A stretch of 64,000 nt of DNA from an uncultured virus (IMG/VR IMGVR_UViG_3300025120_000033) (lineage: Duplodnaviria > Heunggongvirae > Uroviricota > Caudoviricetes), in the IMG/VR virus record IMGVR_UViG_3300025120_000033. One strand, given 5' to 3'. The notes below the pieces were generated by a model. The model did no database searches, was not told the origin of the DNA, and saw nothing but the letters and a program-made list of their open reading frames with translations. A program made the translations under genes and the position numbers. Shown here in pieces: positions 4,143 to 24,524 of this stretch. How positions within the stretch are numbered: position 1 is the first letter of the stretch; each line of letters begins with the position of its first letter.

Positions 4143-7100
4143 CTAGCCAAAGATATCTATATCGTCGAGAGATACTATTCCGCCTGCGGCTAGGCTTATA
4201 CCAACCTCTTCTTCGTCAAATTTTTTCTTGACGCCAGATTTTTTTTCTACAGAAAGTTTTTCCGACAAATTCTCTAGGCCACCTGCCTGAACCTCCTCTG
4301 GTGATATCAGTGATCCGCTGATAAGCGTAAAGGCTAGAGCGCCCGGCGCTAAGCCAGTAAGAGAGTTTATGTCTACGCCCCTATCCTCCATGCGCCGCAA
4401 TATATTTTCTGTCACCGTGCCGCCGTAAGGCTTCATCTGCAGCGCTCTTATTTCTTCGGTTGTAGGCTTAGCCGGATCCTTAACTTTTTGTTGTTTAGCT
4501 CCGAGCCTAGCTTCTGGTATGAGGTCAAATATTGTAGCCTCGCCTGCCTTTGGCAGGGATCCAATGCCTTCGCCGGGTACTGCGAATGGGTATGACGGGT
4601 GCGTTGACGCTGTCAGACCTTCTCCTGTGTATATCCTTCCAACATTCTGTATTCCTGCGTCTTTAGCCAGAACCTGCGGTGGGTCTGTGTTGATCAGTCG
4701 GGCGGCACCGATTGACAGTCCTCCCTTTTTCCTGAACTGTACGTCCATCATGTTCATTAATTCTTTTCTAACCGAGTCGGGGGTATTCCTCCAGACTTCA
4801 ACGGAGGACGGGTCATCAACACCCTTCCATCCCTGTATCATACGCCCTTGGTTAACCCTCTTGCCTTGTACCATAGAGCCGACAGTCTTAAAGTTTTTTA
4901 TTGCCTTATCTAGCGATCGTTTTGTAGACTTATTCATGTTAGCCGAGGCAAAACCAAGCATAAGCTCGCCCGTGGTGGTAGAGAAGTCTCCGCCAGTGGG
5001 TGCCATACGCCAAGGCAAGAACAGGGGGTCGTTGCTAGATTTTTTCATCTCAGCAGCCATCTTTAGTATGTCGTTGGCAGGTTTTTCTGCAGATGCCCAC
5101 ACTTGATTTGGGTTCTCGAACATAAAACCTTGACCGCCACGCAGGTCAACCGCACGATACAGGGGCACGCCATCTATACCCAATATCAGGCCACCCGCCC
5201 TTGTGCGGTCTGACATAGACGTAATAAACTGCTCGCCCTCAAGGTCTGATAACCTCAATACTTTAGGGTCGATGCTTTCAGCCCTAGACTCAATCTCGTA
5301 TCTAAGATTATTTAGCCTATCTATTTCTCCAACGCGGGGGTCAAAGCGCTCGTCATATTTGCGCTCTGGGTATATTTTTTTGGGCCTAGATGACGGCTTG
5401 GAGGGAAGTTTGTCTGCCGCCTTTGCAGCCGCCCTCGCAACTCTCATGGGCGCAACTGCAGCCATCAGGGGTGGGATCAAGTCTCCAATACCGCCTGCTA
5501 TCTGCAGGCCAGAGTCTATGATCTCTCTATTGCGGATGTTTTCTGCTAATGATGGGCCTCTCGGCCCAACAATCATCTCAGCAGTGGTCATGTTCGGGTC
5601 GGTGGGGAAGGCGGCGTACTCGCCGAAGATATCTGCCATCCCACTGTACGGCAAGAATCCGCCGCCAATGTTTGCCGCCTGAGCCGGAGAGAGGCTTGGT
5701 GCCTCCCGCTGCAGGTTGCTCATCGATGGATCCCTGACCAGGTCGGACACGGAACCGCCGAGGTTGTAGCCCTCTGGTGTATCGCGGGTTATCTTCAGGC
5801 TCTCGGCATATTCGGGATCCGTCTGATTCAAAATCTCTTCGCGCATATCCCTCTGTCGTCGCTCTGGCGCTCTCAGATACTTAACAGCCTGCAGTTCATC
5901 TGCCGTTATGACCTTCGCATCAACTAATTTTTTCGCACGGCTCACGTCAAGGGTTTTGTCGATGATGCCGTCGTCTGACTTGTGATAATCCTTGAGAGAG
6001 TCCCGCCCCTTTATCCCAAGGGTCTTGAGCACGCGGTCAGGCTTCTCGGAAGCCTTGAGCGATGCTTCAAGAACCTTGTCCCGCATCTGCTTGTCGAAGT
6101 TATCTTCCTTAACCCTGACTCGCTGCATGGCCTTCTTCATCAGATCGCCGGGCGGGCCGGGCACCATCCCCGCCATAGCCGCCATTGTGTTAATGCCCGC
6201 GCCGTACATATCTCCCTCGCTGATCGAGTCAAAGATATCTATACCGCCCATCAGGTCGCCAACCACGGGGGTGAACTCAAGAGCCGTGATCGTGGCGTCG
6301 GTGTTATCGCCCATCATCGACTCGATAATGTCGCGCAGCTTGTCTTTTGCGCTCCGATTATCGACCTCACCCCCCTCAGCAAAAAGCTCAAGGCCCATCT
6401 GTACGCGCTTGCGCATCTCAGGGGTGATGTCTATGGAGTGTACGGTGTCTTCATCGAACTCAAGCGCGTTATCTTTTTTCTTCAGTAGCCTGAATCTTTC
6501 AAGCTGCGCTTCTGTTAGTTTGCCTTGAACCCCTCTTCTTGTTATTAAATAATCATACTCTTCTTTTTCGGCATCACTTAATACTCTGCGCATCCGCTTG
6601 GATGTCAGATTAGTCTTACCAACCTTGACGCCGTCTGGCTTAACTAGCTTGTTGAGCGCGTTGACGTAGGTCTTATCGTAAAACTGCTTCATGCCCTCGC
6701 CGCCGACATCTAGGTCGAGTCCACTAAGGGCGCGGGTGTTAGGCTCGTAGCTGTTGTCCAATTGTTTTTGGTCAAGAAAGTAGTATCGCTCAGCCTCTTG
6801 CTCTGACAGATTAGGAATCGCACGCTCTAAATTTTCATACTCCTGAAGCTGAGATCGGGTTAAGGGTGCGCCAGTAGCGTCCTGATCGAGTAGTTTTTTG
6901 GTCAACTCTTTGCCAATGATTTCTGGAATATCTTTTTCGGGGTCTTCAATTCGTTTGTTTAAGACTCTACTTCCCTCAAGGTCGTAGGCCGTAAGTACCT
7001 TTACAGGTCGTCCCTCAACAATATCTTCCTGATACCTGACGGAACTTACATTCTTGCTCAGGTTGTAGCGATCAGCTTGTTGGCGACCCGTGGTGAGGGC

Positions 7101-10082
7101 GAGCTTGTCGTAACCACCATCTACGGCATCTTGCAGCGCCTTTTTAAGCGTCAGGTTATACCAAGAAGACTTGTCGCCCGTCTTGAATGGAGCGTCTGGC
7201 AATGAATTTTCAAGCCTGTCTTCAAGGTTTTTTTGCATTTTGCGAAGATTGGCGATTCGATCTCCGAGTGCCGAATGCTCTAAAAATTCAGGTTTTATCG
7301 CCTCATCTGAAAACAACTCATCAAAGCCTAACTCTTCAAGCATTTTTTGATCGTCGTATTCACTATACTTAAACTTAGCTGCCTGCAACTCCTTGTTAAT
7401 GTCATCTAGCTGCCTTTTTAATTCTGGCGTTTTATAGCCAAACTCAGCACCCCTCTGATGCCAGTCGGACTGGATCTCTTCGATCAGCAATACCTTTTTG
7501 CCGTCCGTATCGACGCGATCCATCGTGCGCAGGTGGGCTAATACGTTTGGGTCACGCGCATAGTGACCGCCGGCATAATTATCTTGCACATCTCCAACGC
7601 TACTAATCTGCTCATCCAAATTTTTAATTGTACCCTCAAGGCTATTACTTTCTAGCCTAAAGTTTTTTAGCGCCTCCTCAGCCCCTCCGGGATTTACTCT
7701 TTGCACGGAGGGAGGTAGATCCCGCCCTCCTTCCAGATAACCAATTCTTTGCTTAACTAAATTCAGTGCATTGTTAGCATCAGCTCTAGCCAATTGTAGT
7801 TTGTCGAGCTTTTCTTTCTTAGTGTTGGGCAGCTTGATAATTTTCTCTTTGTAATTATCTCCACTCCTACCCTCGTCTAGCGTGTAGCGCTTGTGCTCAG
7901 GAATTGCTTGAAGACTTTCTTGGCGTACTTGAGCCACTTCCTGCACCTCAACTCTATAATTGTCTAATAGTGCGCGATAGTTATTGACGATCTGATCTCG
8001 CTCTTGAGGCGGAATGCTCGGTCTATATCCCCCCTGAAGCATATCGTAGTCGTGAATTATTTTCTCCACTGCATCAAACAATTCACCAGAATTAATATTC
8101 GCATATTCGAGGATATAATCAGCAATCTCGTTTTCGGTTACATTGCGAGCCTTCTGGGGAGCATCAGATATCGTCTTTATCTTGATGATAGGCTCGTCGG
8201 TCTGAAAATAATCCATCACATCATCGCGGGTAACGTCTGGCTTTTCGGAGAATATGTCGATAAAACCGCTCGCACGAAGCTCGTCTGGCTTAGCGCCTGA
8301 CTTCTGCAGGTCGTTAATGAACGCCTGACCAGAGCCTTTCTTGCGCTCTAGGTTAAGTGCCGCCTCTTCTGCCGCCGAATAAAAGCCCTCGTCGCTCCTA
8401 CGCGCATAGGTCTTGAGCTTTTTAGCCGCCCTCGCCGCCCTCAGCGGAGCTATCGCCGCCGCTACGGGTGGGATAAGGTCGCCGATACCGCCCAGAATCT
8501 GCAGGCCAGAGTCTATTACCTCCTTGTTTCGGATGTTCTCAGCTAGGGAAGGAGAGCGTGGGCCAACAATCATCTCTGCGGTTGTCATACCCTCTGGGGG
8601 GAAGGCGGAATATAGGCCAGATATATCAGCCATACCCGCGCCGGGGGCGAAGCCGCCGAGAATGTTGGCAGTCTGCGCGGGGGTGAGGGGTGTCTCCTGC
8701 GTTATTTCTGGCGTTACGGGGTTACCGTACTCGTCAAAATACTGTCCTACCGAGCCTCCGAGGTTGTAGCCAAAGATGTCTTCCTTATCGACCTCACCGC
8801 CACCCGCCCTCAAGATGTCTGCCGAGTCTTTTTGGCTAGGGTCAAACTGTGCCTGCGGAGATCTAATTTTATTTTCAGAACCACTAAAAACAATGTAGTG
8901 CTCCGTCTCATCATCCATGCCCTGCATCCTAAATTTTTTATTAACATTCCTGTCTATGATTCCCTCATAGTTTAATTCATCCTTGAAAAATTCCGCCGCC
9001 ATAGCGCTAGGGGTTCGCCTGCCATCCATGAGATAATTTTTATTAAACGCATTCACTAGCTGTGTTGCGTCAATCTCATCCATACCATATGAGCCATCAA
9101 AAACATCCTGCAGAATATCTGATGTAAGCCTCTCATCAGCGCCGTATCCACTCAAAAAATCTTTTAACTTTAAGTAATTTGAGTCGATATCATTGTCGTA
9201 AAACTCGTTTGCTCTTTCATATACGGCATCCTCGTAGGCATCATCTGAGTCAAAAGCCTTGCGACCGCCATCGTAGCTATCAATGTCATCAATTGCGCTT
9301 TGACGATAATCACTTCCGGCGGGTATTACCGTGCCGTCCCTCCCGATCTTGACAAAATTATCTGTATTAAGTTTTAGGGGATAGACAACACCGCGAGATG
9401 CTTCACCGATTAGTTCTTCACGCGCCTTTTTTGCTGCCAAGGCGGGATGCATACCCGATACTTCGGTATGATACTCGGTTGCCTGATCTATTCTGGTCTG
9501 CAGGTCAGGGCCAACGCCGGCATAATTTGTGCTCGCATCTTCTGGGTTATTGGTGAGGTAAACTCCACGACCAAAGTCACTCATGTCAGAGGCGTTCTCG
9601 GCGTCAAATGCATAAACGTCATGGGTCGAGCCATGATAAACGTCTGTGTTGTACCCGCCCGATTCCGCTCTGGACATTCTTGATGCGGTGTCCGTGGGCA
9701 GCTCAAGTTGAGACAACGCTCGCGCCCTACGGATAGGCATGGTTGCAGCCGCCGCAAAGGGAACCACACCCGCCAACTGCAACAGTGGATCCACTATGCT
9801 GCCCTGCCTAATATATTCCGCCATCGACGGCGATCTTGGGCCAGTCATCATCTCGCCAACCGTCGTGTTCGGGTCGGCAGGTATCTCAGGGGCACCGCCG
9901 AAGATATCTATCAGGCCATACGGCGTGCCGCCGAGGATTCCCGCACCAACGGCAGCTACCTGCGCCTTGGAGGGTAGTTCTGGCTTTTCGGGGCGCATAA
10001 TAGGCTGCAGGCCATCGTCAAAATAGTCTCCGACAGATCCGCCGAGGTTGTAGCCAAAGATGTCAGTATCATCACGCCGCAT
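4143..10082 (-). CDS. Large modular polyvalent protein/polyprotein (ART-PolyVal-like, EEIQSD domain, unknown domains)
   Basis: 1979 aa; repeated YNLGGSV plus ~110-aa carrier repeat; VYHGS...FD...FGRGVYLT...YA ART-like motif; VLLIEEIQSDWHQ. Confidence 0.8.
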   Translation of the reverse strand: MRRDDTDIFGYNLGGSVGDYFDDGLQPIMRPEKPELPSKAQVAAVGAGILGGTPYGLIDIFGGAPEIPADPNTTVGEMMTGPRSPSMAEYIRQGSIVDPLLQLAGVVPFAAAATMPIRRARALSQLELPTDTASRMSRAESGGYNTDVYHGSTHDVYAFDAENASDMSDFGRGVYLTNNPEDASTNYAGVGPDLQTRIDQATEYHTEVSGMHPALAAKKAREELIGEASRGVVYPLKLNTDNFVKIGRDGTVIPAGSDYRQSAIDDIDSYDGGRKAFDSDDAYEDAVYERANEFYDNDIDSNYLKLKDFLSGYGADERLTSDILQDVFDGSYGMDEIDATQLVNAFNKNYLMDGRRTPSAMAAEFFKDELNYEGIIDRNVNKKFRMQGMDDETEHYIVFSGSENKIRSPQAQFDPSQKDSADILRAGGGEVDKEDIFGYNLGGSVGQYFDEYGNPVTPEITQETPLTPAQTANILGGFAPGAGMADISGLYSAFPPEGMTTAEMIVGPRSPSLAENIRNKEVIDSGLQILGGIGDLIPPVAAAIAPLRAARAAKKLKTYARRSDEGFYSAAEEAALNLERKKGSGQAFINDLQKSGAKPDELRASGFIDIFSEKPDVTRDDVMDYFQTDEPIIKIKTISDAPQKARNVTENEIADYILEYANINSGELFDAVEKIIHDYDMLQGGYRPSIPPQERDQIVNNYRALLDNYRVEVQEVAQVRQESLQAIPEHKRYTLDEGRSGDNYKEKIIKLPNTKKEKLDKLQLARADANNALNLVKQRIGYLEGGRDLPPSVQRVNPGGAEEALKNFRLESNSLEGTIKNLDEQISSVGDVQDNYAGGHYARDPNVLAHLRTMDRVDTDGKKVLLIEEIQSDWHQRGAEFGYKTPELKRQLDDINKELQAAKFKYSEYDDQKMLEELGFDELFSDEAIKPEFLEHSALGDRIANLRKMQKNLEDRLENSLPDAPFKTGDKSSWYNLTLKKALQDAVDGGYDKLALTTGRQQADRYNLSKNVSSVRYQEDIVEGRPVKVLTAYDLEGSRVLNKRIEDPEKDIPEIIGKELTKKLLDQDATGAPLTRSQLQEYENLERAIPNLSEQEAERYYFLDQKQLDNSYEPNTRALSGLDLDVGGEGMKQFYDKTYVNALNKLVKPDGVKVGKTNLTSKRMRRVLSDAEKEEYDYLITRRGVQGKLTEAQLERFRLLKKKDNALEFDEDTVHSIDITPEMRKRVQMGLELFAEGGEVDNRSAKDKLRDIIESMMGDNTDATITALEFTPVVGDLMGGIDIFDSISEGDMYGAGINTMAAMAGMVPGPPGDLMKKAMQRVRVKEDNFDKQMRDKVLEASLKASEKPDRVLKTLGIKGRDSLKDYHKSDDGIIDKTLDVSRAKKLVDAKVITADELQAVKYLRAPERRQRDMREEILNQTDPEYAESLKITRDTPEGYNLGGSVSDLVRDPSMSNLQREAPSLSPAQAANIGGGFLPYSGMADIFGEYAAFPTDPNMTTAEMIVGPRGPSLAENIRNREIIDSGLQIAGGIGDLIPPLMAAVAPMRVARAAAKAADKLPSKPSSRPKKIYPERKYDERFDPRVGEIDRLNNLRYEIESRAESIDPKVLRLSDLEGEQFITSMSDRTRAGGLILGIDGVPLYRAVDLRGGQGFMFENPNQVWASAEKPANDILKMAAEMKKSSNDPLFLPWRMAPTGGDFSTTTGELMLGFASANMNKSTKRSLDKAIKNFKTVGSMVQGKRVNQGRMIQGWKGVDDPSSVEVWRNTPDSVRKELMNMMDVQFRKKGGLSIGAARLINTDPPQVLAKDAGIQNVGRIYTGEGLTASTHPSYPFAVPGEGIGSLPKAGEATIFDLIPEARLGAKQQKVKDPAKPTTEEIRALQMKPYGGTVTENILRRMEDRGVDINSLTGLAPGALAFTLISGSLISPEEVQAGGLENLSEKLSVEKKSGVKKKFDEEEVGISLAAGGIVSLDDIDIFG

Positions 10083-10482
10083 TCGCTAAAAACTCCTCGT
10101 TGGTAGAGAGGATATTAAACCACTCGTCGAGGGTCATTACCACCGTTCTGCCGTTATCCCTCGGCAGGGAGGGGTTTACAAAATAAAGTGGTGCGCAGAC
10201 GCGGATCCCCTTGTTGTTGAACTTGTATATCAGGATCGGCGTCTTGTCTCCGCACGACTCGACCACCTGCTGCCACCACTTGGGGGAAAACCACCATCCA
10301 GATTTATATGCTTTGCACTCGATCGCGTGGTTCGGAAGCTCAACGTCGCACATTCCTGCCATCTGATACTGATCGAGGTTGCGCTTGACGCGGATGGGGG
10401 AGTTCATGCCCACCAAAAAGTCATTTATCTTCGTACAGATCGCACGCTCGAAGCTCGCGCCCTTGGATCTTGAGTCAGCCAT
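10072..10482 (-). CDS. Holliday junction resolvase-like PD-(D/E)XK nuclease (copy A)
   Basis: SRSKGASFER...CD...IECK...WWQQ. Confidence 0.8.
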   Translation of the reverse strand: MADSRSKGASFERAICTKINDFLVGMNSPIRVKRNLDQYQMAGMCDVELPNHAIECKAYKSGWWFSPKWWQQVVESCGDKTPILIYKFNNKGIRVCAPLYFVNPSLPRDNGRTVVMTLDEWFNILSTNEEFLANAA

Positions 10483-10632: not shown

Positions 10633-10789
10633 AGGGGGATTATGCGCGATCTGAAAAATAAAATAAAATTTTTGGGCAAATTCGTTTTGCTTAAAAAATA
10701 AGCAGACCCTAGAAATCGATGAGGATGGCGCGATTTGGGTCGGAGAAAGCGGATCGAGTTTAGGCGTTGAGTTTTTTTGGTGATTCAGT

Positions 10790-11079: not shown

Positions 11080-11124
11080 AGGTTAGATCTAACGCGGCGC
11101 TCGATCAAGTTAGTTTGCAGGTTC

Positions 11125-11652: not shown

Positions 11653-11659
11653 TTTAAAA

Positions 11660-14128: not shown

Positions 14129-14199
14129 TGATGTTGACTCCATGTGTGTGGTGTTGCACAATATCATACAAATTTGCAAACTGACAAGAGGATATGTAC

Positions 14200-14895
14200 A
14201 TGGGACTAACAATTTCTTCAAGCGGCACTGGCGATCGAGAGACGCTACCTGTCGGGCAATACTCAGCAGTGTGCTATAAGATCGTTGACGTGGGCACACG
14301 GATGGAAACCTTTCAGCAGGACGACCCTAAAAAAAGAACGTCGGTCTGCATCTACTGGGAGGTCTCACACCCCAAGATGGCAGATGGTCGGCCTTTCAGT
14401 ATTATGAAACAATACACCTCGTCGCTCAACGAAAACGCCACGCTGCACAAGGATCTGAAGTCTTGGCGCGGCAAGAGCTTCACGGAGGAGGAGCTTCGAG
14501 GCTTTGAGATACAGAATATACTATCTGTGTCGGCTCAGCTTGAGGTTGCGCACACCGAGGGCGGTAACGCCAAGGTTGTGTCGGTCTTTAAACCAGATGG
14601 CGGTGCGAAAAAAACACCGACCGTCAACCCTGCGCAGGTGTTTGACCTTGAGGTGTACTGCCAAGAGTTTAGCGGCAAGAGTGATGCCAAGAGCAAGGAG
14701 ATGTGTGACGTGTTCGCCGACCTGCCCTCCTTTATGCAGGAGATGGTGAATGAGTCGTTTGAGATGAAGGCGGCAGAGAACAGCATGGCGTCAACGACTG
14801 GCGTTGATGGTTTAGCCGCAATCGCAAAGAAGACGGCTGCGGATAAAAAATCTTCTGAGCCGATCGTCGAATTTGACGACGACATTCCGTTCTAG
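14200..14895 (+). CDS. Single-stranded DNA-binding-like protein (copy A)
   Basis: Acidic DDDIPF C-terminal tail; divergent from primase. Confidence 0.75.
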   Translation: MGLTISSSGTGDRETLPVGQYSAVCYKIVDVGTRMETFQQDDPKKRTSVCIYWEVSHPKMADGRPFSIMKQYTSSLNENATLHKDLKSWRGKSFTEEELRGFEIQNILSVSAQLEVAHTEGGNAKVVSVFKPDGGAKKTPTVNPAQVFDLEVYCQEFSGKSDAKSKEMCDVFADLPSFMQEMVNESFEMKAAENSMASTTGVDGLAAIAKKTAADKKSSEPIVEFDDDIPF

Positions 14896-16639: not shown

Positions 16640-17410
16640 ATGGATTTTAAGGTAGGCATCTATGAAGATCTCGACTACCCAACCTATGACTCGATACCGG
16701 CGTGGCGATCCCACGATTTGACTAGCATCTCTCGGTGCCCGTATTCTTGGAAGAATAAGGTGTTTAACAACTCTCCTGCCCTTCTGGAAGGAAGGGTTCA
16801 ACACTCAGTATTCTTAGAGTTGGATAAGTTCGACGAGGAGTACGCCATCGAGCCTGCGGTCGATAAGAGAACCAAGGTCGGAAAGGCTGAGTATGAAGAC
16901 TGGAAGACAACCGTGGGCGACCGCACGCCAGTCAAGCAAGACCTCGTTGATGTATGCATGGAGCGACGTGAGGTTCTTGCCGAGCACATACCCAAGCCAG
17001 AGCATCGGTGTGAGCTAACACTGTGTTGGGAGTGGCACGGCTATCCCTGCAAGGGTAAGCTAGACTGGCACACCGGCACCGACATCTGGGATCTCAAGAC
17101 CTGCCGCGATGCGTCGCCCCGTGGCTTTAAGTCTGCGGTGAATAACTTTTTGTATTTCCAACAGGCAGCGTATTATCTGACAGGGTGCCGCGCCGTAGGT
17201 TTACCAACCGAGAAATTTTATTTTCTTGCGGTCGAGAAGATGCACCCCTACCCCTTTGGCGTATTTACCCTGACTGAGGAGGCGATCGAGTACGGCAACG
17301 CCAAGAATGAGCAGGCGTTGGCGCTCGGACTGAGGTGCAGGGAGACTGGCATCTATCGACCGTACAATATGTCCGAAACCATCGAGTTCGATGTCAATGA
17401 TCTTTACTGA
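16640..17410 (+). CDS. PD-(D/E)XK exonuclease, DUF3799/RecE-like (copy A)
   Basis: EGRVQH...CKGKLD...DLKT...YFQQAAYY. Confidence 0.85.
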   Translation: MDFKVGIYEDLDYPTYDSIPAWRSHDLTSISRCPYSWKNKVFNNSPALLEGRVQHSVFLELDKFDEEYAIEPAVDKRTKVGKAEYEDWKTTVGDRTPVKQDLVDVCMERREVLAEHIPKPEHRCELTLCWEWHGYPCKGKLDWHTGTDIWDLKTCRDASPRGFKSAVNNFLYFQQAAYYLTGCRAVGLPTEKFYFLAVEKMHPYPFGVFTLTEEAIEYGNAKNEQALALGLRCRETGIYRPYNMSETIEFDVNDLY

Positions 17411-17591
17411 AGAGGAGGCGATCAAGGAGCGGCAGTGGGCAGATGACAAGAAGTACCACGCCGCCCGCTTCGCTTGGAAGAACCAACATCGTTACATTCC
17501 TAGCGGTAAGCTGAACTGGCGGCAGTGGTGGGAGAAAATGTTCAGTGATAATTTGATGGATTATGCGATGAAGAAGAAGAAGGACGGCTGA
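17391..17591 (+). CDS. Hypothetical protein (copy A)
   Basis: YHAARFAWK motif shared with 32193-32420. Confidence 0.7.
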   Translation: MSMIFTEEEAIKERQWADDKKYHAARFAWKNQHRYIPSGKLNWRQWWEKMFSDNLMDYAMKKKKDG

Positions 17592-17594
17592 TGG

Positions 17595-17936
17595 TTAGTC
17601 CAACCAACCGTCATAATATCTGACCTCCATACCCTCAGCTTTCAGATAATCGAGAGCTGACATCACGCTCGCTTCTGCAGATAAATTGCCCTGTCCTGTG
17701 GGGCATCGAACAACGGTCTTTAGCTCCGCCGTGCGTTTGTTGCGACCGCAGAACCAAACCTGAATGCCCTTGCCGCCTGTGCAACTGCCCTCATCCTTGG
17801 AGCCTTGTGCGACCCACTCATCGTACCAGAGCTTCTCTGAGAACTTGAGTATCGACGTAAGTTTGTCGATGTCGGCAGGTTGATACGCTTCCACAGTGTC
17901 TTCGTTTCGAGTGTAAAACTTCGGTGCTGTTTTCAT
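17595..17936 (-). CDS. Hypothetical early protein
   Basis: Preceded by hairpin-RBS element. Confidence 0.75.
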   Translation of the reverse strand: MKTAPKFYTRNEDTVEAYQPADIDKLTSILKFSEKLWYDEWVAQGSKDEGSCTGGKGIQVWFCGRNKRTAELKTVVRCPTGQGNLSAEASVMSALDYLKAEGMEVRYYDGWLD

Positions 17937-17960
17937 TTTTTTCTCCTGTGCCCCCCGTAG

Positions 17961-18138
17961 GGGCGGTTGGTAATTAACTTATCTAAAGATACAGCCGGTT
18001 TAAGTCGTCAGGTTATTGATCAAAAACCTCACCAAATTTATTGGAGCGCCAAAGATTACGCGCTGTGCTCAAACTTTTCGGGCATGGCTGTCCCTATCTG
18101 TATCTTTAGAAAAATGAATTCTTTCTCAACAGTTCCCA
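17961..18138 (-). ncRNA. Candidate structured ncRNA element, copy 1
   Basis: 178-bp direct repeat of 20278-20455; 13-bp closing inverted repeat with compensatory change; internal hairpins. Confidence 0.5.
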
Positions 18139-18146
18139 CTAGTCTC

Positions 18147-18269
18147 CTATGCCCCCTTGGGGGCGGTTCGTCCGCGCAAAAGGGCGTGGATTAACTTCGC
18201 CTCTTTGCCTTTGATTTTTGGATCTTTCTTAATGGCCTTATCGACCGCCTTTTTGTTGTACTTAGTCAC
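18147..18269 (-). CDS. Small basic protein
   Basis: GTG start, MTKYNKKAVDKAIKKDPKIKGKEAKLIHALLRGR. Confidence 0.6.
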   Translation of the reverse strand: MTKYNKKAVDKAIKKDPKIKGKEAKLIHALLRGRTAPKGA

Positions 18270-18867
18270 CCTTGACCTCCATTTTTGCTTTGGTTGGTCG
18301 CTTGTAAAAGCCGAACTTGTTATCGTCTTCGCTAGCCTCAACAGTCGCAGAGAAGGTAACGCGACTGCCTTTGACGGTAGTCCTATCCTCGTAGGCCGCG
18401 TTACTCAGTGATCTAGGCACGGAACCCCAGACTTTAAAGCCTCGATCATCACGAACCAACATCTTCAGAGTATCGCCGTAATAGCCTTCCTGAGTCTTGA
18501 CAGTGATGACCTCACCAGTGATGACCTGCTTGCCGTTCACGATAGCCTCTGCGTTAGCGTTCTCAGCAGCGCTCTTTGCCGCCCACTCAGCTTTTTTGGC
18601 TATGTTGCCATCAATGATCTTCAAGACAGCCGCGCCCTGATTTGGTGAAAGCTTGCCGTAAGCGCTAAGAGCTTCGTCCAAGCTTCTCGCAAATTCGTTG
18701 CTCATCGCATTGGAGAGTAGCCAAGTGTGGATCTCATCAGCACGCTCCTGAGTTTTTAACCATGTCTTGCGAGCGTTGGCGATAATGTTGCGCTTGATAG
18801 CGTTGCTATACGCCTCTGGGTTTTCGATTTCGCTCCCGCCTGCTATATACCCTACCCTGTGTCCCAT
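18262..18867 (-). CDS. Hypothetical early protein with C-terminal OB-fold-like segment
   Basis: ITGEVITVK...KVWGSVP...VTFSATV; first gene after promoter at 18912. Confidence 0.75.
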   Translation of the reverse strand: MGHRVGYIAGGSEIENPEAYSNAIKRNIIANARKTWLKTQERADEIHTWLLSNAMSNEFARSLDEALSAYGKLSPNQGAAVLKIIDGNIAKKAEWAAKSAAENANAEAIVNGKQVITGEVITVKTQEGYYGDTLKMLVRDDRGFKVWGSVPRSLSNAAYEDRTTVKGSRVTFSATVEASEDDNKFGFYKRPTKAKMEVKGD

Positions 18868-18894
18868 AACTTTCTCCAATTGATTAACTACATT

Positions 18895-18935
18895 GCTATA
18901 GTCTCACATATCGTGTCGTTGTGCAAGTGTTTGGA
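18895..18935 (-). promoter_or_regulatory. Early promoter TTGCACAACGACACGATATGTGAGACTATAGC
   Basis: Identical core to the promoter at 53863-53894. Confidence 0.75.
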
Positions 18936-18950
18936 CAAAATAAATCAAAA

Positions 18951-19178
18951 TTATTCCTCGGTCTTCCAAATGGTGATCTCTCGAACGCCATTAACCCTTT
19001 CTGAGCGAGTCACAACTTTGCACTTGGGATCTGACTGGCGAATCGCGGCGGAGATCTTTTGCTTCTCCAGATCGTCTTTGACGATCACGCAGTCGCCGTA
19101 CTCCATAAAATAAACAAATCCATACTTGACAGATCGACCTGCTCTTGCTGGGATTGGCTTGCCTTTGATAATCTCCAT
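18951..19178 (-). CDS. Small hypothetical protein (copy 2)
   Basis: Paralogue of 3168-3395. Confidence 0.8.
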   Translation of the reverse strand: MEIIKGKPIPARAGRSVKYGFVYFMEYGDCVIVKDDLEKQKISAAIRQSDPKCKVVTRSERVNGVREITIWKTEE

Positions 19179-19188
19179 GATTTTCTCC

Positions 19189-19554
19189 TTATCTCAAGCT
19201 TCCGAGAAGCGGGAATTCCCAATAGTCACCGACCTCATAGTCGTATTCAGCCGCATTTGTATCAACGTGCGTCGCATAATCGTAGCGACCTTCTATCCAC
19301 ACGACCGCATCAGTACCGAATTCTTTGACCGCTTCCGCAACCACCTGTTTTATGTATGCCATCGATATTCGGCCAGAGCCGTAATTGTCGTAGCGTTCGT
19401 TGTCATCCTTGTCGGCCATCACTATCTTCCACCCGTCCGTGGTGACAATCGGATAACCCCTGATCTTGTTTGCCGCGACACCCGCACGGACATCTCTGCG
19501 CAGTTCAGCGATTTGGTTAAGAATGCTTGGCGCCTTTTCTGTTACATTTTTCAC
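19189..19554 (-). CDS. Hypothetical early protein
   Basis: Preceded by hairpin-RBS element. Confidence 0.75.
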   Translation of the reverse strand: MKNVTEKAPSILNQIAELRRDVRAGVAANKIRGYPIVTTDGWKIVMADKDDNERYDNYGSGRISMAYIKQVVAEAVKEFGTDAVVWIEGRYDYATHVDTNAAEYDYEVGDYWEFPLLGSLR

Positions 19555-19589
19555 ACTAGTCTCCTAGCCCCCGCAGGGGCGGTTGGTGG

Positions 19590-20255
19590 TTAAGCGACCA
19601 TTTTTCGCTTGGTTGAGCCGACTTGGCTGTTCAGTGATACCTTCTTTCCTTTTGCGTAACCCGCGTTGTAAGCGTTCTGCGATACGCTGTAAGATCTTCC
19701 TGCGCTGTAGCTTAGATTGAAGCGCTTGATAATCAGGTCTTTCTTCACAACAACCAGATCTGTGCCAGTCGTTGCCTTGCTGAGCTCTTCCTCTCGCTCG
19801 GCCTTGATCTCTCGGCATCGATCTAAAATTGCGAATACCACCCCCATCTTGAAACTGTTGCGATCTCGGCGCGAGCCATCAAACTTCTTAGCCAGCCGCT
19901 CAGTCACAGCAACCAAGTAGTCAAACATCAGTAGCGCAACCTGAGTGTCTTCGGGCGTGCCGCAAAACTTTATCTCGTTGTTTCGCTTGGTCGGCAACGT
20001 GCTTGTGAGATAAGAGGCTGACCACGCCAGATTCCATACCCAGCTAGAGTTGCGACTCTCGCCAGTCTCAGCGGCCACCATGTCGTCCTTGTTGATAGTC
20101 TGCGCGGTGAGCTCGGCGTACTGAATGTCGTGCTTTCGCATCATGCTCTCGGCGCGGCGCAGTGCTATCGACGCCTCGTTCTCGTTAGACGCGGAGTGCT
20201 TGGCCATAGCCAGCAGTTTCTGCACTCGATCTAATAATTTCGCTCTATCGTTCAC
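19590..20255 (-). CDS. DUF2786-domain protein (copy 2)
   Basis: Paralogue of 2464-3132; GTG start after hairpin-RBS. Confidence 0.8.
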   Translation of the reverse strand: MNDRAKLLDRVQKLLAMAKHSASNENEASIALRRAESMMRKHDIQYAELTAQTINKDDMVAAETGESRNSSWVWNLAWSASYLTSTLPTKRNNEIKFCGTPEDTQVALLMFDYLVAVTERLAKKFDGSRRDRNSFKMGVVFAILDRCREIKAEREEELSKATTGTDLVVVKKDLIIKRFNLSYSAGRSYSVSQNAYNAGYAKGKKVSLNSQVGSTKRKMVA

Positions 20256-20277
20256 ACTAGTCTCCTAGCCCCCTCGG

Positions 20278-20455
20278 GGGCGGTTGGTAATTAACTTATT
20301 TAAAGATACAGCAGGTTTAAGTCGTCAGGTTTTTGATCAATAACCTCACCAAATTTATTGGAGCGCCAAAGATTACGCGCTGTGCTCAAACTTTTCGGGC
20401 ATGGCTGTCCCTATCTGTATCTTTAAAAAAATGAATTCTCTCTCAACAGTTCCCA
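20278..20455 (-). ncRNA. Candidate structured ncRNA element, copy 2
   Basis: Directly downstream of the minus-strand TATAAT promoter; 6 differences from copy 1. Confidence 0.5.
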
Positions 20456-20597
20456 TTATACATGGATCGTGTCGGTGTGCAACAGTTTGCACAAATATAA
20501 TTAGACTATGAAGTAATAAGAATTGATAGTTATATAACTAATTGTTCTAATCAAAATGTATAAATAAGTGTACAACGACATGGTATGTGCTATTATA
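20455..20597. promoter_or_regulatory. Divergent promoter pair (hub 2)
   Basis: -: TTGCACACCGACACGATCCATGTATAAT; +: TGTACAACGACATGGTATGTGCTATTAT. Confidence 0.75.
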
Positions 20598-20628
20598 TCC
20601 ATGTAGTTAATTGATTGAGGAGATCAAA

Positions 20629-21012
20629 ATGAAATTAGGAAAAGAAACTGGTTCGCTTGTGAACTACATCTATGGAAACTCTACTATCGGTGATGTAAAG
20701 ATTGGTGATCCAGCCACTCTGACAAGCTGGTCTGATCGAAGCGCCGCCACTGTTACCGACGTTTTTGCTTACGGCAAATATGATTACATCTCGGTGACAA
20801 AGGACATCTCGAAAGTTGTTGGCGGTACTGGCTATGGCGACGAGGTTTACGAATACAGCCGTGATCCAAATGGCTACGAAGAAACCTTCAGGGTCGTAGA
20901 CGGCAAATTGATTTCTGTTTACAAAAACACTGCAACAGGACGATGGATTAAGAGAAACTCTGGCGGTTGTTTTGTCGGGCGCAGAGATTCTTACCGAGAT
21001 CCTTCTTTCTAA
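20629..21012 (+). CDS. Hypothetical early protein
   Basis: GAGGAG RBS; ...WSDR...G.RD.YRDPSF end. Confidence 0.75.
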   Translation: MKLGKETGSLVNYIYGNSTIGDVKIGDPATLTSWSDRSAATVTDVFAYGKYDYISVTKDISKVVGGTGYGDEVYEYSRDPNGYEETFRVVDGKLISVYKNTATGRWIKRNSGGCFVGRRDSYRDPSF

Positions 21013-21045
21013 CCCGCTACAATAGGTTTTTATTGAGGATTTGGA

Positions 21046-21159
21046 ATGAGCAAAATTACGGTTGAATTGGACAAAGAGGACGCGGAGGTCGTCCTCGCTA
21101 ACCAGCAAGAAATTGTCGAGCTACTGCGGCAAATACTGGAGGAGCTAAAAAGTGGATAA
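21046..21159 (+). CDS. Small helical protein
   Basis: MSKITVELDKEDAEVVLANQQEIVELLRQILEELKSG; GAGGA RBS. Confidence 0.55.
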   Translation: MSKITVELDKEDAEVVLANQQEIVELLRQILEELKSG

Positions 21160-21325
21160 ATATTTTAGAACGCTGGAGGCGGTAAAGATTTCGGCAATTA
21201 AGCCCGAGATGTCGAAGCCACAGCAAATTCGCGCTTACAAAACTGCGCTAATACGGCATCATGGTATTCGTGATGAGGCAAAATACATCATTAACACTTG
21301 GATTGGAGAATCAAAAAATGGCTGA
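21152..21325 (+). CDS. Hypothetical protein
   Basis: GGAGG RBS, GTG start, coupled overlaps. Confidence 0.55.
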   Translation: MDKYFRTLEAVKISAIKPEMSKPQQIRAYKTALIRHHGIRDEAKYIINTWIGESKNG

Positions 21326-21506
21326 CAGATATGAGTTGGAAGAGTTTGTAAGGTCAAAAACGGGTGCAGGGTACGTTGTCACGCACAGTTGCACGGAAGA
21401 TAAATTCGAGATGATTGAGCGGCGGGCAAAGAAACTTGAGTCAGAAAAGACGCCATACAGCATCTACTACATCAACGAAAGCGGCTCTCGGAGTAGAGTC
21501 GCCTAG
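21318..21506 (+). CDS. Hypothetical protein
   Basis: GGAG RBS; MADRYELEEF... Confidence 0.6.
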   Translation: MADRYELEEFVRSKTGAGYVVTHSCTEDKFEMIERRAKKLESEKTPYSIYYINESGSRSRVA

Positions 21507-21622
21507 CCCCGCTCTTCTGCCTGAATCATTTTAAGCACTCGCTTCACCATAGCTTTGTGTAGAGGCGAGTCTGCTTGTCTTTCACCTTCATCATCTGCCG
21601 CGTTGAAGTCGAATCTCGGCAT
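21503..21622 (-). CDS. Possible 39-aa protein overlapping the end of the zeta-like polyprotein
   Basis: MPRFDFNAADDEGERQADSPLHKAMVKRVLKMIQAEERG; fills the gap, weak RBS. Confidence 0.35.
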   Translation of the reverse strand: MPRFDFNAADDEGERQADSPLHKAMVKRVLKMIQAEERG

Positions 21623-24524
21623 CTGTGAAGATGTCTGCGGTGTCTTCAATGAGCGGTTTAGGGACTTCAATCCCGACCGAGTTGTCGATTCTTGCATAGC
21701 CATCTGCTACTCCTTCTTTTCTAAGTATATCATAAGTGACTGACGGGAGATCTCCAACTTCGCCCATGTAATCTGGCGGTATCAACTTCTTGCTTTTAAT
21801 AAACCGAAGCAACATTCGCCTAAGCGCCTCTTCTTTTGATACCACAACGTCAACCAGATTGACTTTGTATCCCGCATCTTTGTAAGCGCTGATCTCAGCC
21901 ATAATCTTTTCTGGATTTGCGCCAACTGTTGGGATGACAATGTTGTTTTTATTGGCGATCATTAAATTACGAATATCCTTGGTAATCGCCTTCGATTCAA
22001 CGTGGGTGGCGTTACTGCCAACCCCGCCAGCAAACTCAGGCATTGCCTTCTTTACTTCGTCAGGATCCAGTATCGCGGCGTTTAATTTTCGGGCCAAGGG
22101 GTTGGCGACAGAGCTTTTGCCCGAAGCGGGTGGCCCTAGAATTATTGTCGCCGTTGGGTTCTTAACTCGACCCTTAACTGATCCGTTATATGCCATCTTC
22201 TCGTCTGTCCAGCCCAGCGCTTTCAGGTCATCGTACATTCTTTTCACCGCACCATCCAAGCCAACGATTTCTGTATCGCCCTTATCAAACGAGAAGCGGC
22301 GCTCCTGAAAATATTTGTCGGTGCCGTAACCGTCAAAAAATTGCGTTTCAGGCATCGTATTCATTTCAGACACAACGCGGGCAACGGCAGGATGGTTCTG
22401 CACAGTTGAGGCGCTGGTAGCATCTAACTTGGTTGTGTTGAGGTAGTTCAGCAGATCAGCCAGATCTGGATCGTCTGGGACAAGCTGTTCAATGTTGGGC
22501 GCCGCATCAATCGCCGCAAGTCTCGCGGCATCAACGCTCTCTATTCCGTCTGGAGCAATCGCCGCCATCTGATCGATTGACGCAATCCCAGAGCTATCTG
22601 CGGCGTTATCGAGGCGACTCATCTTTTGCAGGGCTCGGGGTAGCTTGAGTGCGGCGCCAACGCCCAGACCAACTGGTCCCATAACTGAGGCGGCATCGCC
22701 AACAAGCCCCAGACCTTGGAATCCCGCATCCAGATAGTTTCCTTCGCCAAGGTTCTGTGCCAACGAAAGATTGTTTTGATCCGCAAATATGTCGTCACCA
22801 GAGCCCATGGCGGGCATTTGGCCTGCCGCATCGATAGTGCCAGCACCAACAGGAAGTTGTGCGGCGATATAGGCCATCTGCTCGGGTGTTAGCTTCAAAG
22901 AGGACTCTCGACCCATCATTTCGCTGACAGATCCGCCCATGTTGTACCCAAATATGTCTATTTTGTCCACAGAACCCCCGTCAGCGTAATCTGTGCCGTA
23001 ATTTTCGTTCATATACCTGTTCATAGCGTCAATCTTTTCGTCAGTCATTCTCTCAAACAAGTGGCGGCGCTCCAAAGCACCAACCTGCTGCTCATAAGGA
23101 AACAACTCGCCCGCCTTATTAACCGACTTTGAGAGCATATTGAAAGTATCTGGGAACATTATCTCGGGGGGAAGGCTCTGCTCTAGGCCACCGAGGTATT
23201 TGCCCGCGATACTCTTATTGTAGCTCTGATGAATAGGCTCATCAAAGATTGAGGCGTTAGGCACGGCATCAAACATGGCGTAACCAGATGCTCCACGTGG
23301 AACGTCGGCCAACTCGGGCATGGTGATGGTTTTTGCAACGTCTTCGTATACAGGAAAGCCTTGCTTGGTAAACATATCTTTCTTCATATGTGAAACAAGC
23401 GCGGTCCTGATCTGTCCTGCGCCCTTCCTAGGAAATCCGCCCTCACCAAGCAACTGATTAAATACGTCAGGACTTTCTAACCCTACCCAGTCTGGCCTAG
23501 CCTTCAGGGTGGGGTTCTTTTTAGTTTGATCGCCAATACCTCGGCGCATGGCGTCGTCAAATTCTTTGATTGCGCTCTTGGGTATGCCGATAGCGGGTAT
23601 CTGAGCAACCATTGCAGTAGCAACTGGGGCAGAGAAGTCGATGCCGTCTCGCGCCATGGCGGAATAGACGCCCACGGGGTCTAGCCCAGTTTCGTCGGCG
23701 GCAAGGGTTATATTGTTTTGCTTGGACTGGGCGATACCTTCCATCGATGCCCAGCCAGCGCCACGGCCTTCATTGATAATCATGTAGTCTGGGCCGCCCT
23801 GCACTGGAACCGCACGACTAAGTGGCACGCCATTGACGTCAACCAGAGAAGATATGCCTTGGCCCTGTATCGAGAGGGACCTGTCACCAGCCACGGGCAC
23901 CAAAACTTTACCCAAGAGGCTCTCTGGCGCCTGAATGATACGGGACTGTGGCGCGAACGTCGCTATCTCGCCCTCGGCGCGTAGTCTCTCTCGGCGGAAC
24001 ACGGCTGGAGTTTCGAGTTTTTTCTGATATGTGTTGGCTCGGGTCTTTACCGTAGCGGGCTTGACGCCCAAAGCCTCTTGCTCTTGACGGAACTTCTCTG
24101 TAAGATCTTTGCGACTCATCTTCGCTTGAGTAGCCATCTTCATGGTTTTCTGCACCGCCCTCGGCGCCTTCAGCGTAGCCCCTATCGCGGGCCCCACGGC
24201 AGGTATCGCATACGCAAAATCGCCTGCCGCACCCAATCCCTGAAGCGCGGCATCTAGGTATTTATCCGACCTCAAATTTTCAGCCATAGAAGGGTTGTTT
24301 TCAGCGCTAAACAGGTCAACTATGTCTGCCTCAGATGACGGCATACCCGCCATTTGACCAGCGGCATCTAGGGTTCCAGCGCTCGGAGCAAACTGCGCGG
24401 CAAGGTAGGCAAGTTGCGTGGGGGTGAGGATTGGCTCTTGATCGAGGTTTAACATGGTGGGGTCATTCATTAGCTGACCGACGCTACCGCCCATATTGTA
24501 CTCAAAGATGTCGATATCCTTCAC
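21591..24524 (-). CDS. Modular polyprotein (unknown domain plus zeta-toxin-like P-loop kinase)
   Basis: Two DIF[EG]YNMGGSV plus carrier units; IILGPPASGKS...ILDPDEVKK...H.ES zeta-toxin signature. Confidence 0.8.
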   Translation of the reverse strand: MKDIDIFEYNMGGSVGQLMNDPTMLNLDQEPILTPTQLAYLAAQFAPSAGTLDAAGQMAGMPSSEADIVDLFSAENNPSMAENLRSDKYLDAALQGLGAAGDFAYAIPAVGPAIGATLKAPRAVQKTMKMATQAKMSRKDLTEKFRQEQEALGVKPATVKTRANTYQKKLETPAVFRRERLRAEGEIATFAPQSRIIQAPESLLGKVLVPVAGDRSLSIQGQGISSLVDVNGVPLSRAVPVQGGPDYMIINEGRGAGWASMEGIAQSKQNNITLAADETGLDPVGVYSAMARDGIDFSAPVATAMVAQIPAIGIPKSAIKEFDDAMRRGIGDQTKKNPTLKARPDWVGLESPDVFNQLLGEGGFPRKGAGQIRTALVSHMKKDMFTKQGFPVYEDVAKTITMPELADVPRGASGYAMFDAVPNASIFDEPIHQSYNKSIAGKYLGGLEQSLPPEIMFPDTFNMLSKSVNKAGELFPYEQQVGALERRHLFERMTDEKIDAMNRYMNENYGTDYADGGSVDKIDIFGYNMGGSVSEMMGRESSLKLTPEQMAYIAAQLPVGAGTIDAAGQMPAMGSGDDIFADQNNLSLAQNLGEGNYLDAGFQGLGLVGDAASVMGPVGLGVGAALKLPRALQKMSRLDNAADSSGIASIDQMAAIAPDGIESVDAARLAAIDAAPNIEQLVPDDPDLADLLNYLNTTKLDATSASTVQNHPAVARVVSEMNTMPETQFFDGYGTDKYFQERRFSFDKGDTEIVGLDGAVKRMYDDLKALGWTDEKMAYNGSVKGRVKNPTATIILGPPASGKSSVANPLARKLNAAILDPDEVKKAMPEFAGGVGSNATHVESKAITKDIRNLMIANKNNIVIPTVGANPEKIMAEISAYKDAGYKVNLVDVVVSKEEALRRMLLRFIKSKKLIPPDYMGEVGDLPSVTYDILRKEGVADGYARIDNSVGIEVPKPLIEDTADIFTDAEIRLQRGR

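What the first reader, a model, noticed from the sequence alone, without database searches (positions are those of the whole stretch)
4143..24524. Candidate novel system: concatenated phage effector polyproteins of [GG signal + carrier + variable payload] units
Seen: the 1979-aa (4143-10082) and 977-aa (21591-24524) ORFs occupy the same slot in modules A and B and are chains of units. Five units begin with YN[LM]GGSV (four preceded by DIF[GE]), then a ~110-aa amphipathic repeat (TPxQxA...G.xD..G...PS[LM]AEN[IL]...D..LQ.xG..GD...R..R), then a payload. Payloads: ART-like (~9650-8830), EEIQSD domain (~8390-6400), a domain shared by both proteins (DR.....GVPL.R.V...GG), and a zeta-toxin-like kinase (~22140-21600). 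A short TPVVGD unit (~6385-5775) lacks the full carrier. Established: ART-PolyVal and zeta kinases are conflict effectors in phage polyvalent proteins and polymorphic toxins. Inference: a virion-delivered polymorphic effector array cut into separate carrier-effector pieces; unlike MuF toxins, several units are fused and the carrier is repeated.
Basis: partly seen in the sequence, partly recalled or inferred. Interest (0 to 1): 0.88.

Follow-up and report, generated by a model that had tools for sequence, protein, structure and literature searches.

The report
Swappable toxin chains in marine phages
Two giant genes of an abundant uncultured marine phage encode chains of toxin-like enzymes, each headed by the same previously uncatalogued 125-residue module, and related phages shuffle these units like cassettes, which points to a new way for phages to carry interchangeable weapons.

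Summary
The 1979-aa and 977-aa ORFs carry five copies of a ~125-aa module (DIDIF-G-YN[LM]GGSV…PS[LM]AEN…LQ.LG). Both lie after RusA in two versions of one replication module.

The module is a real family with no Pfam, PHROG or PDB match: 386 clusters in an exhaustive profile search. In all 55 related loci with a called ORF it lies away from portal, capsid and terminase genes. In relatives it precedes ART-PolyVal, PBECR5, RelA/SpoT, Zeta kinase, a shared unknown domain and an "EEIQSD" domain. These are polyvalent proteins with a new head module.

Alleles on near-identical backbones differ by whole units. Single-unit alleles have chimeric modules, so recombination inside the module swaps cassettes.

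A short delimiter, GGxV…D[IV]DIF, marks unit borders and the extreme N- and C-termini. Some relatives carry LGIGSL there instead, which resembles encapsulin targeting peptides.

Cutting into pieces is not supported: no protease was found. Virion delivery has only indirect support. Only 29 of 208 family members have two or more modules.

Verdict: new variant of a known kind; moderately high interest.

The parts
4143..10082 (-). Polyvalent protein A, 1979 aa: module, ART-like domain, module, EEIQSD domain, short unit, module, shared domain, DIDIF tail
9690..10070 (-). Head module copy A1 (residues 5-131), begins DTDIFGYNLGGSV
8811..9686 (-). ART-like payload (residues 133-424); DUF3990 and ART-PolyVal matches below Pfam cut-offs
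8769..8804 (-). Unit delimiter GGGEVDKEDIFG (residues 427-438)
8394..8786 (-). Head module copy A2 (residues 433-563)
6363..8390 (-). EEIQSD domain (residues 565-1240), unknown function; ends in AEGGEVD
5778..6374 (-). Short unit (residues 1237-1435) with GGIDIF; no significant match to the module
5394..5783 (-). Head module copy A3 (residues 1434-1563), preceded by TPEG and not DIF
4203..5399 (-). Shared domain, copy A (residues 1562-1960), unknown fold
4146..4187 (-). C-terminal tail AGGIVSLDDIDIFG followed by the stop codon
21591..24524 (-). Polyvalent protein B, 977 aa: module, shared domain, module, Zeta kinase
24123..24518 (-). Head module copy B1 (residues 3-134)
22986..24125 (-). Shared domain, copy B (residues 134-513)
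22947..22985 (-). Unit delimiter ADGGSVDKIDIFG (residues 514-526)
22599..22964 (-). Head module copy B2 (residues 521-642)
21768..22169 (-). Zeta-toxin-like P-loop kinase (residues 786-919)
10072..10482 (-). RusA-like resolvase immediately upstream of protein A (slot marker)
24787..25185 (-). RusA-like resolvase upstream of protein B (slot marker)
43185..45206 (-). Tape-measure-like, Gly-rich structural protein (673 aa) that shares the SYGGSV, ADGGNV and GIASLN motifs with the polyvalent proteins; possible co-packaged partner

Best explanation
The two ORFs are polyvalent multi-effector proteins, in the sense of Iyer et al. 2017, of an abundant uncultured marine phage lineage. The lineage's portal resembles those of HTVC023P-type pelagiphages and of CRP-901/902 roseophages. 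The ORFs fill a hypervariable slot after RusA.

The constant part is a previously uncatalogued ~125-aa head module. It consists of a flexible N-terminal peptide (D[IV]DIF-G-YN[LM]GGSV) and a ~90-aa helical domain. A short delimiter, GGxV...D[IV]DIF, marks unit borders and ORF ends.

Shown: the module family, its linkage to ART, PBECR5, RelA-SpoT, Zeta, shared and EEIQSD domains, and cassette exchange by recombination inside the module.

Inferred: the module and delimiter peptides act as the common handle that brings interchangeable effectors into the virion, in the way MuF does elsewhere, so that they enter the next host with the DNA. Proteolytic release of units is possible but not needed for this model.
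For: Family and linkage:
- The profile search gave 386 clusters at E<=1e-3, 189 at <=1e-10 and 43 at <=1e-30.
- Among 208 non-redundant members there are 62 architectures. ART-PolyVal occurs in 48, the shared domain in 44, DUF3990-like ART in 20, RelA/SpoT in 20, EEIQSD in 18, PBECR5 in 13 and Zeta in 10. Pfam confirms these on 38 plus 74 proteins.

Slot:
- RusA lies upstream in 34 of the 44 loci that have 1.5 kb or more of upstream DNA. TerS-like is upstream in 41 of 55 and primase-helicase in 39 of 55. A serine recombinase followed by a tail fibre lies downstream in 19 of 55.
- Remote members sit in the same slot.

Cassette exchange: the single-unit alleles P0038 and P0039 have a chimeric module whose first ~98 residues match copy B1 and whose tail matches copy B2.

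Delimiter:
- D[IVL]F lies in the first 14 residues of 95 of 205 proteins (shuffle mean 1.4) and in the last 8 residues of 34 of 205 (shuffle mean 0.6).
- Synonymous sites differ between junctions, so selection acts on the peptide.

Structure: in the AF2 model residues 1-40 are below pLDDT 50 and the helical core scores 83-89. There was no PDB sequence match.

Virion link (all indirect):
- Shared-domain homologues lie between portal and capsid in CRP-902, beside the portal in C72C1, and at the end of the structural genes in MW202879.
- Outside the two ORFs, the motifs Y..GG[SP]V and [YMF]A[DEQ]GGxV occur only in the 673-aa tape-measure-like protein, twice each against 0.06 and 0.015 expected.
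- The same effector set is fused to MuF in other phages (passages of PMC5512222).
Against: - No portal, capsid or TerL gene lies within 10 kb in any of 55 loci. The genes sit at the end of a replication operon, which also fits expression inside the infected cell.
- No virion proteomics exists for this lineage; the listings and passages seen mention none.
- No cultured phage in the 50,697-record collection carries the module by tblastn.
- The motif sharing with the 673-aa protein was defined after seeing the data.
- 143 of 208 members hold stretches that none of my domain probes explains.
- The model of the shared domain is mediocre (pLDDT 65.7).
Confidence: 0.5

Rival explanations
1. One reading: a true polyprotein cut at the delimiters (after ...DIDIF, or at the GG of YNLGGSV) by a phage or host protease into separate module-effector pieces before or after packaging.
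For: The delimiter sits exactly at unit borders. At N-termini its D lies at residue 5-9 in 96 cases. At C-termini it is always followed by 1-4 variable residues, and 0 of 34 end at F, as if a P1' residue were needed. Units also exist as separate genes that split at the delimiter. Polyvalent proteins of other phages are known to be processed, for example P1 DdrB (passage in PMC5512222).
Against: No peptidase family was hit in 42 ORFs against PHROGs or in the head-module and payload segments against Pfam. The region between portal and capsid holds a GroES-like gene and coiled-coil or unknown ORFs only. Most family members have one module followed by several domains with no module between them. 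Removing 1-2 terminal residues has no obvious use.
Confidence: 0.2
2. The proteins are not packaged. They are made in the infected cell as host-takeover or anti-defence enzymes, and the module and the DIDIF peptides tether them to a replication or repair hub, for example by imitating the acidic-hydrophobic SSB tip.
For: The genes end the primase-helicase / RusA operon. The phage encodes two SSB-like proteins ending in DDDIPF (window 14194-14895 and 29039-29764), and DDIDIF resembles that tip.
Against: None of 34 C-terminal motifs ends at F, whereas the SSB tip, from recalled knowledge, needs the free terminal Phe. The motif is as common at N-termini. It is interchangeable with the non-acidic LGIGSL in homologous tails. 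Shared-domain homologues lie in structural modules elsewhere.
Confidence: 0.22
3. The repeats are only recombination scaffolds. The module has no biochemical role beyond providing homology for cassette shuffling, like conserved junctions in polymorphic toxin loci.
For: A chimeric module marks a recombination event. 23 identical nucleotides are shared by junctions A1 and A2.
Against: Synonymous positions differ between junctions while the peptide is kept. The family keeps conserved residues at 27-64% identity across 30 aligned copies. Most members have a single module, where no intragenic homology is needed. The core is predicted to fold.
Confidence: 0.06

Closest known systems
Polyvalent proteins of phages and conjugative elements (Iyer, Burroughs, Anand, de Souza, Aravind 2017, PMC5512222)
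   Same: Large multi-domain proteins that combine ART (ART-PolyVal), PBECR RNase, RelA/SpoT and zeta-like kinase domains in mosaic, fast-changing architectures; predicted conflict effectors.
   Different: No MuF, portal, MPTase or other hub domain of that network was found. A ~125-aa module with no Pfam match takes the N-terminal position and can be repeated. A short delimiter peptide marks unit borders and ORF ends. The genes lie after RusA, not among head genes.
MuF-toxin fusions (MuF/SPP1 gp7 minor head protein with C-terminal effectors)
   Same: A constant N-terminal part followed by a swappable C-terminal toxin drawn from the same repertoire (PBECR, RelA/SpoT, zeta kinase; passages).
   Different: No Phage_Mu_F match; the constant part is far smaller and partly disordered; several units can be fused; the genes are not next to the portal gene.
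Polymorphic toxins with demarcation motifs (CdiA VENN, Rhs PxxxxDPxGL; recalled, not from a call)
   Same: A conserved short motif separates the constant region from variable toxin tips, and recombination swaps the tips.
   Different: Phage-encoded; no immunity gene was recognised beside the ORFs; the delimiter occurs at both ends of units and at ORF termini; several toxins lie in series.
Encapsulin cargo-loading (targeting) peptides, consensus DGSLGIGSLKG (PMC7925596)
   Same: A short terminal peptide after a Gly-rich linker. 9 of 208 family members end in G[IVL]GS[LI] (0.03 expected). Both systems involve an HK97-fold shell (the phage capsid matches Phage_capsid_4).
   Different: The window's own proteins carry DIDIF-type tails, with GGIVSL just before. 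The motif is also found at N-termini and internally. Binding to the capsid is untested.
T4 Alt and internal proteins with the capsid targeting sequence (recalled; Alt described in PMC5512222)
   Same: An ART enzyme packaged in the head and injected; in T4 a ~10-residue N-terminal signal is removed by the prohead protease.
   Different: No prohead protease was found here; there is no sequence similarity; the units are chained.

Membership tests
Polyvalent proteins (Iyer et al. 2017) | One polypeptide of a phage or plasmid with two or more unrelated conflict-type domains | tested here: met
   Protein B: shared domain plus Zeta kinase. Protein A: ART-like, EEIQSD and shared domains.
Polyvalent proteins (Iyer et al. 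2017) | Domains drawn from the polyvalent repertoire (ART-PolyVal, PBECR, RelA/SpoT, zeta kinase) | tested here: met
   Zeta_toxin scores above the cut-off in protein B. ART-PolyVal, PBECR5, RelA_SpoT and Zeta occur in module-bearing relatives, several above cut-off.
Polyvalent proteins (Iyer et al. 2017) | Gene context of virion packaging (late) genes, or fusion to MuF or portal | tested here: inconclusive
   0 of 55 loci have portal, capsid or TerL within 10 kb. A TerS-like gene lies upstream and a tail-fibre gene downstream.
Polyvalent proteins (Iyer et al. 2017) | Transfer into the host together with the DNA | not testable with these tools
   Needs virion proteomics or injection assays.
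MuF-toxin fusions | N-terminal Phage_Mu_F domain | tested here: not met
   No MuF match in either protein at E<=0.1 or in the relatives scanned.
Zeta toxin (PF06414) | Profile match above the curated cut-off, with a P-loop | tested here: met
   65.3 bits against 22.3, residues 786-919; GPPASGKS is visible in the translation.
Zeta toxin (PF06414) | Cognate epsilon-type antitoxin, or UNAG kinase activity | not tested
   Neighbours were not searched for an antitoxin; the activity needs an assay.
ART-PolyVal / DUF3990 ADP-ribosyltransferase-like | Profile match above the curated cut-off | tested here: inconclusive
   DUF3990 30.6 bits against 32.2 and ART-PolyVal 25.1 against 31.2 on the excised segment. 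Homology at E 4e-39 to the part of P0097 that holds a short DUF3990 match just above the cut-off.
Double-glycine leader peptides (C39 peptidase export) | A cognate C39 peptidase / ABC exporter encoded nearby | tested here: not met
   None among the 42 ORFs scanned against PHROGs or the ORFs scanned against Pfam; not every small ORF was scanned.
Viral polyproteins released by a protease | A protease embedded in the protein or encoded by the virus | tested here: inconclusive
   No peptidase family was hit, but several head-module ORFs have no known family.
Encapsulin-type cargo-loading peptides | Terminal LGIGSL-like peptide behind a flexible linker | tested here: inconclusive
   Present in 9 of 208 relatives and interchangeable with the DIDIF tail. 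The window's proteins have GGIVSLDDIDIFG and ...DIFTDAEIRLQRGR.
Encapsulin-type cargo-loading peptides | Binding to the inner face of the HK97-fold shell | not testable with these tools

The most novel reading that the evidence does not exclude
The short peptides that flank the units (GGxV...D[IV]DIF, replaceable by LGIGSL) are capsid-interior targeting peptides. They would work like, and may share ancestry with, encapsulin cargo-loading peptides. A tailed phage would then load a swappable set of toxins into its HK97-fold head through terminal and internal peptides. The ~90-aa helical module would act as adaptor, and the Gly-rich tape-measure-like protein, which carries the same motifs, would be loaded by the same route.
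Probability: 0.2. Interest if true: 0.85.

Novelty: new variant of a known kind. Interest (0 to 1): 0.62.

Why it matters
The capsid gene of this phage lineage has at least 8000 close relatives in public data (the scored candidate cap; the 120 listed are 86-100% identical). Its hypervariable effector slot is therefore a widespread site of phage-host conflict in the sea.

The work defines a new domain family and a motif grammar that annotation pipelines miss. It shows how toxins (ART, RNase, alarmone synthetase, zeta kinase) are exchanged as cassettes.

It also offers a testable idea: small peptides, not MuF, may address effectors to a phage head. If the encapsulin-like reading is right, it links phage cargo packaging and encapsulin cargo loading, and gives a simple tag for loading proteins into phage capsids.

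Tried and rejected
- Fold of the shared domain: Foldseek against the PDB gave no match (best E 0.082). The wide VIA search gave a best Z of 5.7 over 43 residues. No fold was assigned.
- Fold of the module: best Z 4.5. A profile of the module against PDB sequences found nothing at E<=10.
- ESM Atlas look-ups of the shared and EEIQSD domains gave only unnamed viral clusters, at scores 0.76 and 0.86.
- PDB sequence searches with the EEIQSD domain, the capsid protein and the 313-aa ORF after the portal found nothing meaningful.
- Cultured phages: tblastn with both proteins found no module, only payload domains. The nearest virus record, G001, has none. HTVC027P has a different replication module.
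- Bacterial and archaeal species genomes: 15 pattern matches, none confirmed. An earlier try with the larger alignment was rejected as too divergent.
Capsid binding therefore remains open.
- Double-glycine leader idea: rejected, because the motif does not fit the leader pattern as I recall it and no C39 peptidase was seen.
- SSB-tip mimicry: weakened by 0 of 34 C-terminal motifs ending at F.
- Recombination signal at the DNA level only: rejected, because synonymous sites vary.
- Earlier findings of this scan: nothing on record.
- Literature strings YNLGG, DIFGYN and PSLAEN: none occurs in the 10 of 145 papers listed, whose hits come from 'didif' in unrelated words; the other 135 were not seen.
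- The HTVC023P-type genome paper has no mention of toxin, zeta, ADP-ribosyl, RusA, polyvalent or hypervariable.
- Tandem or chimera: contigs of four runs were laid on 16800-19300. Depth steps from about 30-39 to 220-300 at ~17950 in X1 and X3, and contigs on the right-hand side enter from other sequence. One X1 contig runs 16800-18054 without a difference, but that run may be the window's own source. This remains unresolved.
Full report
**Setting.** The window is a phage contig; its own assembly is not held.
- PHROG and Pfam scans give, on the minus strand from 64000 to about 36300: endolysin, TerL, an SU10-type portal, a GroES-like gene, a Phage_capsid_4 major capsid protein and tail genes.
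- Two versions of one replication module follow.
  - Module B (about 36000 to 17600): 2OG oxygenase; a divergent block with an SSB-like gene, a methyltransferase and exonuclease VIII; then primase-helicase, TerS-like, RusA and the 977-aa ORF.
  - Module A (about 17400 to 1): the same order with the 1979-aa ORF, then a serine recombinase and the start of a tail-fibre gene.
- The closest cultured portals are those of Pelagibacter phages HTVC023P and HTVC027P (46% and 44% identity), phage DSL-LC04, and roseophages CRP-901/902.
- HTVC027P has a different replication module.
- The capsid protein returned 8000 relatives, which is the cap of scored candidates. The 120 listed are 86-100% identical, so the lineage is abundant.

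**The observation.**
- Both ORFs are as described.
- YN[LM]GGSV occurs five times, four of them preceded by DIF[GE].
- The five ~125-aa repeats align with 18 invariant columns.
- Zeta_toxin is a clear match (65 bits).
- The ART-like payload is below the Pfam cut-offs. It is homologous at E 4e-39 to the part of relative P0097 that holds a short DUF3990 match just above the cut-off.
- The domain shared by both proteins is real.
- The short TPVVGD unit does not match the repeat profile.
- In the window the repeat occurs only in these two ORFs.

**The repeat is a family tied to varied payloads.**
- A profile of the five copies found 133 longer proteins among 8000 candidates.
- A 30-copy profile read against 1.84 billion representatives found 386 clusters at E<=1e-3, 189 at <=1e-10 and 43 at <=1e-30.
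- Pfam on 38 and then 74 of these proteins shows ART-PolyVal, PBECR5, RelA_SpoT, Zeta_toxin, DUF3990, DUF7178 and one GAF/PAS protein; many have no match.
- With my own domain probes, 208 non-redundant members fall into 62 architectures.
- Only 29 of 208 have two or more modules. The commonest form is one N-terminal module followed by one to several domains.
- The module itself has no Pfam, PHROG or PDB sequence match.
- No paper among those listed holds its motif strings.
- These payloads are those that Iyer et al. describe in polyvalent proteins and in MuF fusions (passages read). No MuF is present here.

**One slot, many alleles.**
- 57 viral loci encode the module; an ORF was called in 55.
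- RusA lies upstream in 34 of the 44 loci with enough upstream DNA. TerS-like is upstream in 41 of 55 and primase-helicase in 39 of 55. The serine recombinase is downstream in 19 of 55, followed by a tail fibre with a Peptidase_S74 end. Portal, capsid or TerL is never within 10 kb.
- Remote members with other N-termini sit in the same slot.
- On backbones 94-100% identical to module B, the slot holds four different alleles: module-shared-module-Zeta (the window), module-shared-module-RelA/SpoT, module-RelA/SpoT, or module-Zeta.
- The single-unit alleles have a chimeric module. Its first ~98 residues are those of copy B1 and its tail is that of copy B2. Recombination inside the module therefore removed the intervening unit.
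- In other loci the chain is split into two genes exactly behind a DIDIF tail.

**The delimiter.**
- Across the family, D[IVL]F sits in the first 14 residues of 95 of 205 proteins (shuffle mean 1.4, maximum 5).
- It sits in the last 8 residues of 34 of 205 (shuffle mean 0.6, maximum 4).
- In all it occurs 415 times against 80 expected.
- The usual context at borders is [AE]GGx[VI]x0-3 D[IV]DIF.
- At N-termini the D lies at residue 5-9.
- At C-termini F is always followed by 1-4 variable residues, never zero.
- Codons differ between the window's junctions, so the peptide is what is conserved.
- In homologous tails, DIDIF is replaced by LGIGSL...GGAIDINDIDIFAR* against ...GGEIRKSQMNLGIGSLMQ*.
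- G[IVL]GS[LI] lies in the last 15 residues of 9 of 208 proteins (0.03 expected) and occurs 47 times in all (1.9 expected). A looser pattern gives 9 N-terminal and 23 C-terminal cases.
- The encapsulin targeting-peptide consensus is DGSLGIGSLKG (PMC7925596, passages).

**Structure.**
- AlphaFold2 on delimiter plus module (28-row alignment) gives mean pLDDT 67. Residues 1-40, which hold the delimiter and YNLGGSV, are below 50. A helical core scores 83-89. No fold match was found (best Z 4.5).
- The model of the shared domain (pLDDT 65.7, pTM 0.61) found no match either.

**Is it in the virion? The evidence is indirect.**
- For: shared-domain homologues are encoded between portal and capsid in CRP-902, just upstream of the portal in phage C72C1, and at the end of the structural genes in MW202879.
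- For: outside the two ORFs, the motifs Y..GG[SP]V and [YMF]A[DEQ]GGxV occur only in the Gly-rich 673-aa tape-measure-like protein. They occur twice each against 0.06 and 0.015 expected. The patterns were chosen after seeing the data.
- For: the 976-aa tail-region protein has five G[IL]x[SA]L motifs against 0.26 expected.
- Against: the genes end a replication operon and are never near head genes.
- No proteomics was found, and the complex predictor was unavailable.

**Is it cut?**
- No peptidase was recognised in the ORFs scanned.
- The ORFs between portal and capsid are GroES-like, coiled-coil-like or unknown.
- The terminal position of the delimiter fits a processing site and a docking peptide equally well.

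**Verdict.**
- The best name is polyvalent proteins with a new head module and delimiter grammar.
- Delivery by the virion is the most likely use (about even odds).
- Cleavage is unproven (about 0.2).
- An intracellular role remains open (about 0.2).
- The boldest reading that survives is encapsulin-like capsid targeting by the short peptides (about 0.2).

Noticed in passing
window 14194-14895 (+) and 29039-29764 (+): The first genes of the two divergent operons (233 and 241 aa, no Pfam match) end in ...DDDIPF, the canonical bacterial SSB C-terminal tip. They are probably phage SSB-like proteins that plug into the host's SSB interaction network.
   Followed up: partly
window about 17400-18300 (junction of modules A and B): Modules A and B are two versions of one genome segment placed in tandem. 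In related contigs only one module follows the 2OG gene (L003, L053). Contig depth steps from about 30-39 to 220-300 at ~17950 in runs X1 and X3, with loose ends at 17952 and 17960 in X3 (X5 and X9 show one or both). One X1 contig bridges 16800-18054. It could be a real tandem, a rare recombinant or an assembly chimera.
   Followed up: partly
window 40258-43188 (-): The 976-aa tail-region protein carries five G[IL]x[SA]L motifs (0.26 expected; 0 of 2000 shuffles reach 5), in repeat-like contexts.
   Followed up: partly
window 43185-45206 (-): The 673-aa Gly/Met/Gln-rich protein carries SYGGSV...MADGGNV at its N-terminus and AYGGPVMAYADGGNV near residue 575-590. That second region is the part that matches tape-measure PHROGs. 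It is probably an internal or ejection protein of a short-tailed phage.
   Followed up: partly
window 917-1708 (-) and 2-589 (-): A serine recombinase (matches integrase and DNA-invertase PHROGs) sits directly upstream of a large tail-fibre gene (Peptidase_S74 end in relatives). The pairing is conserved in 19 of 55 loci. It could be an integrase or a host-range invertase.
   Followed up: no
window 57950-58396 (-): A GroES-like (Cpn10) gene lies between portal and capsid, as annotated in HTVC027P and CRP-902.
   Followed up: no
window 36090-36329 (+) and 53931-54326 (+): Two small ORFs outside the slot carry delimiter-like peptides: ...LEGGEVIDLFARL... (79 aa, conserved in related loci) and a C-terminal ...PAEINVDLFNRK* (131 aa, next to the capsid gene).
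   Followed up: no
window 2413-3132 (+) and 19590-20255 (-): A DUF2786/DUF7168 protein (phrog_421) lies downstream of the polyvalent gene in both modules, in opposite orientations.
   Followed up: no
L064:9380-10711: In a different phage contig, an EEIQSD-like protein (27% identity to the long protein) lies directly after genes related to the window's 629-aa virion protein and 976-aa tail-region protein.
   Followed up: partly
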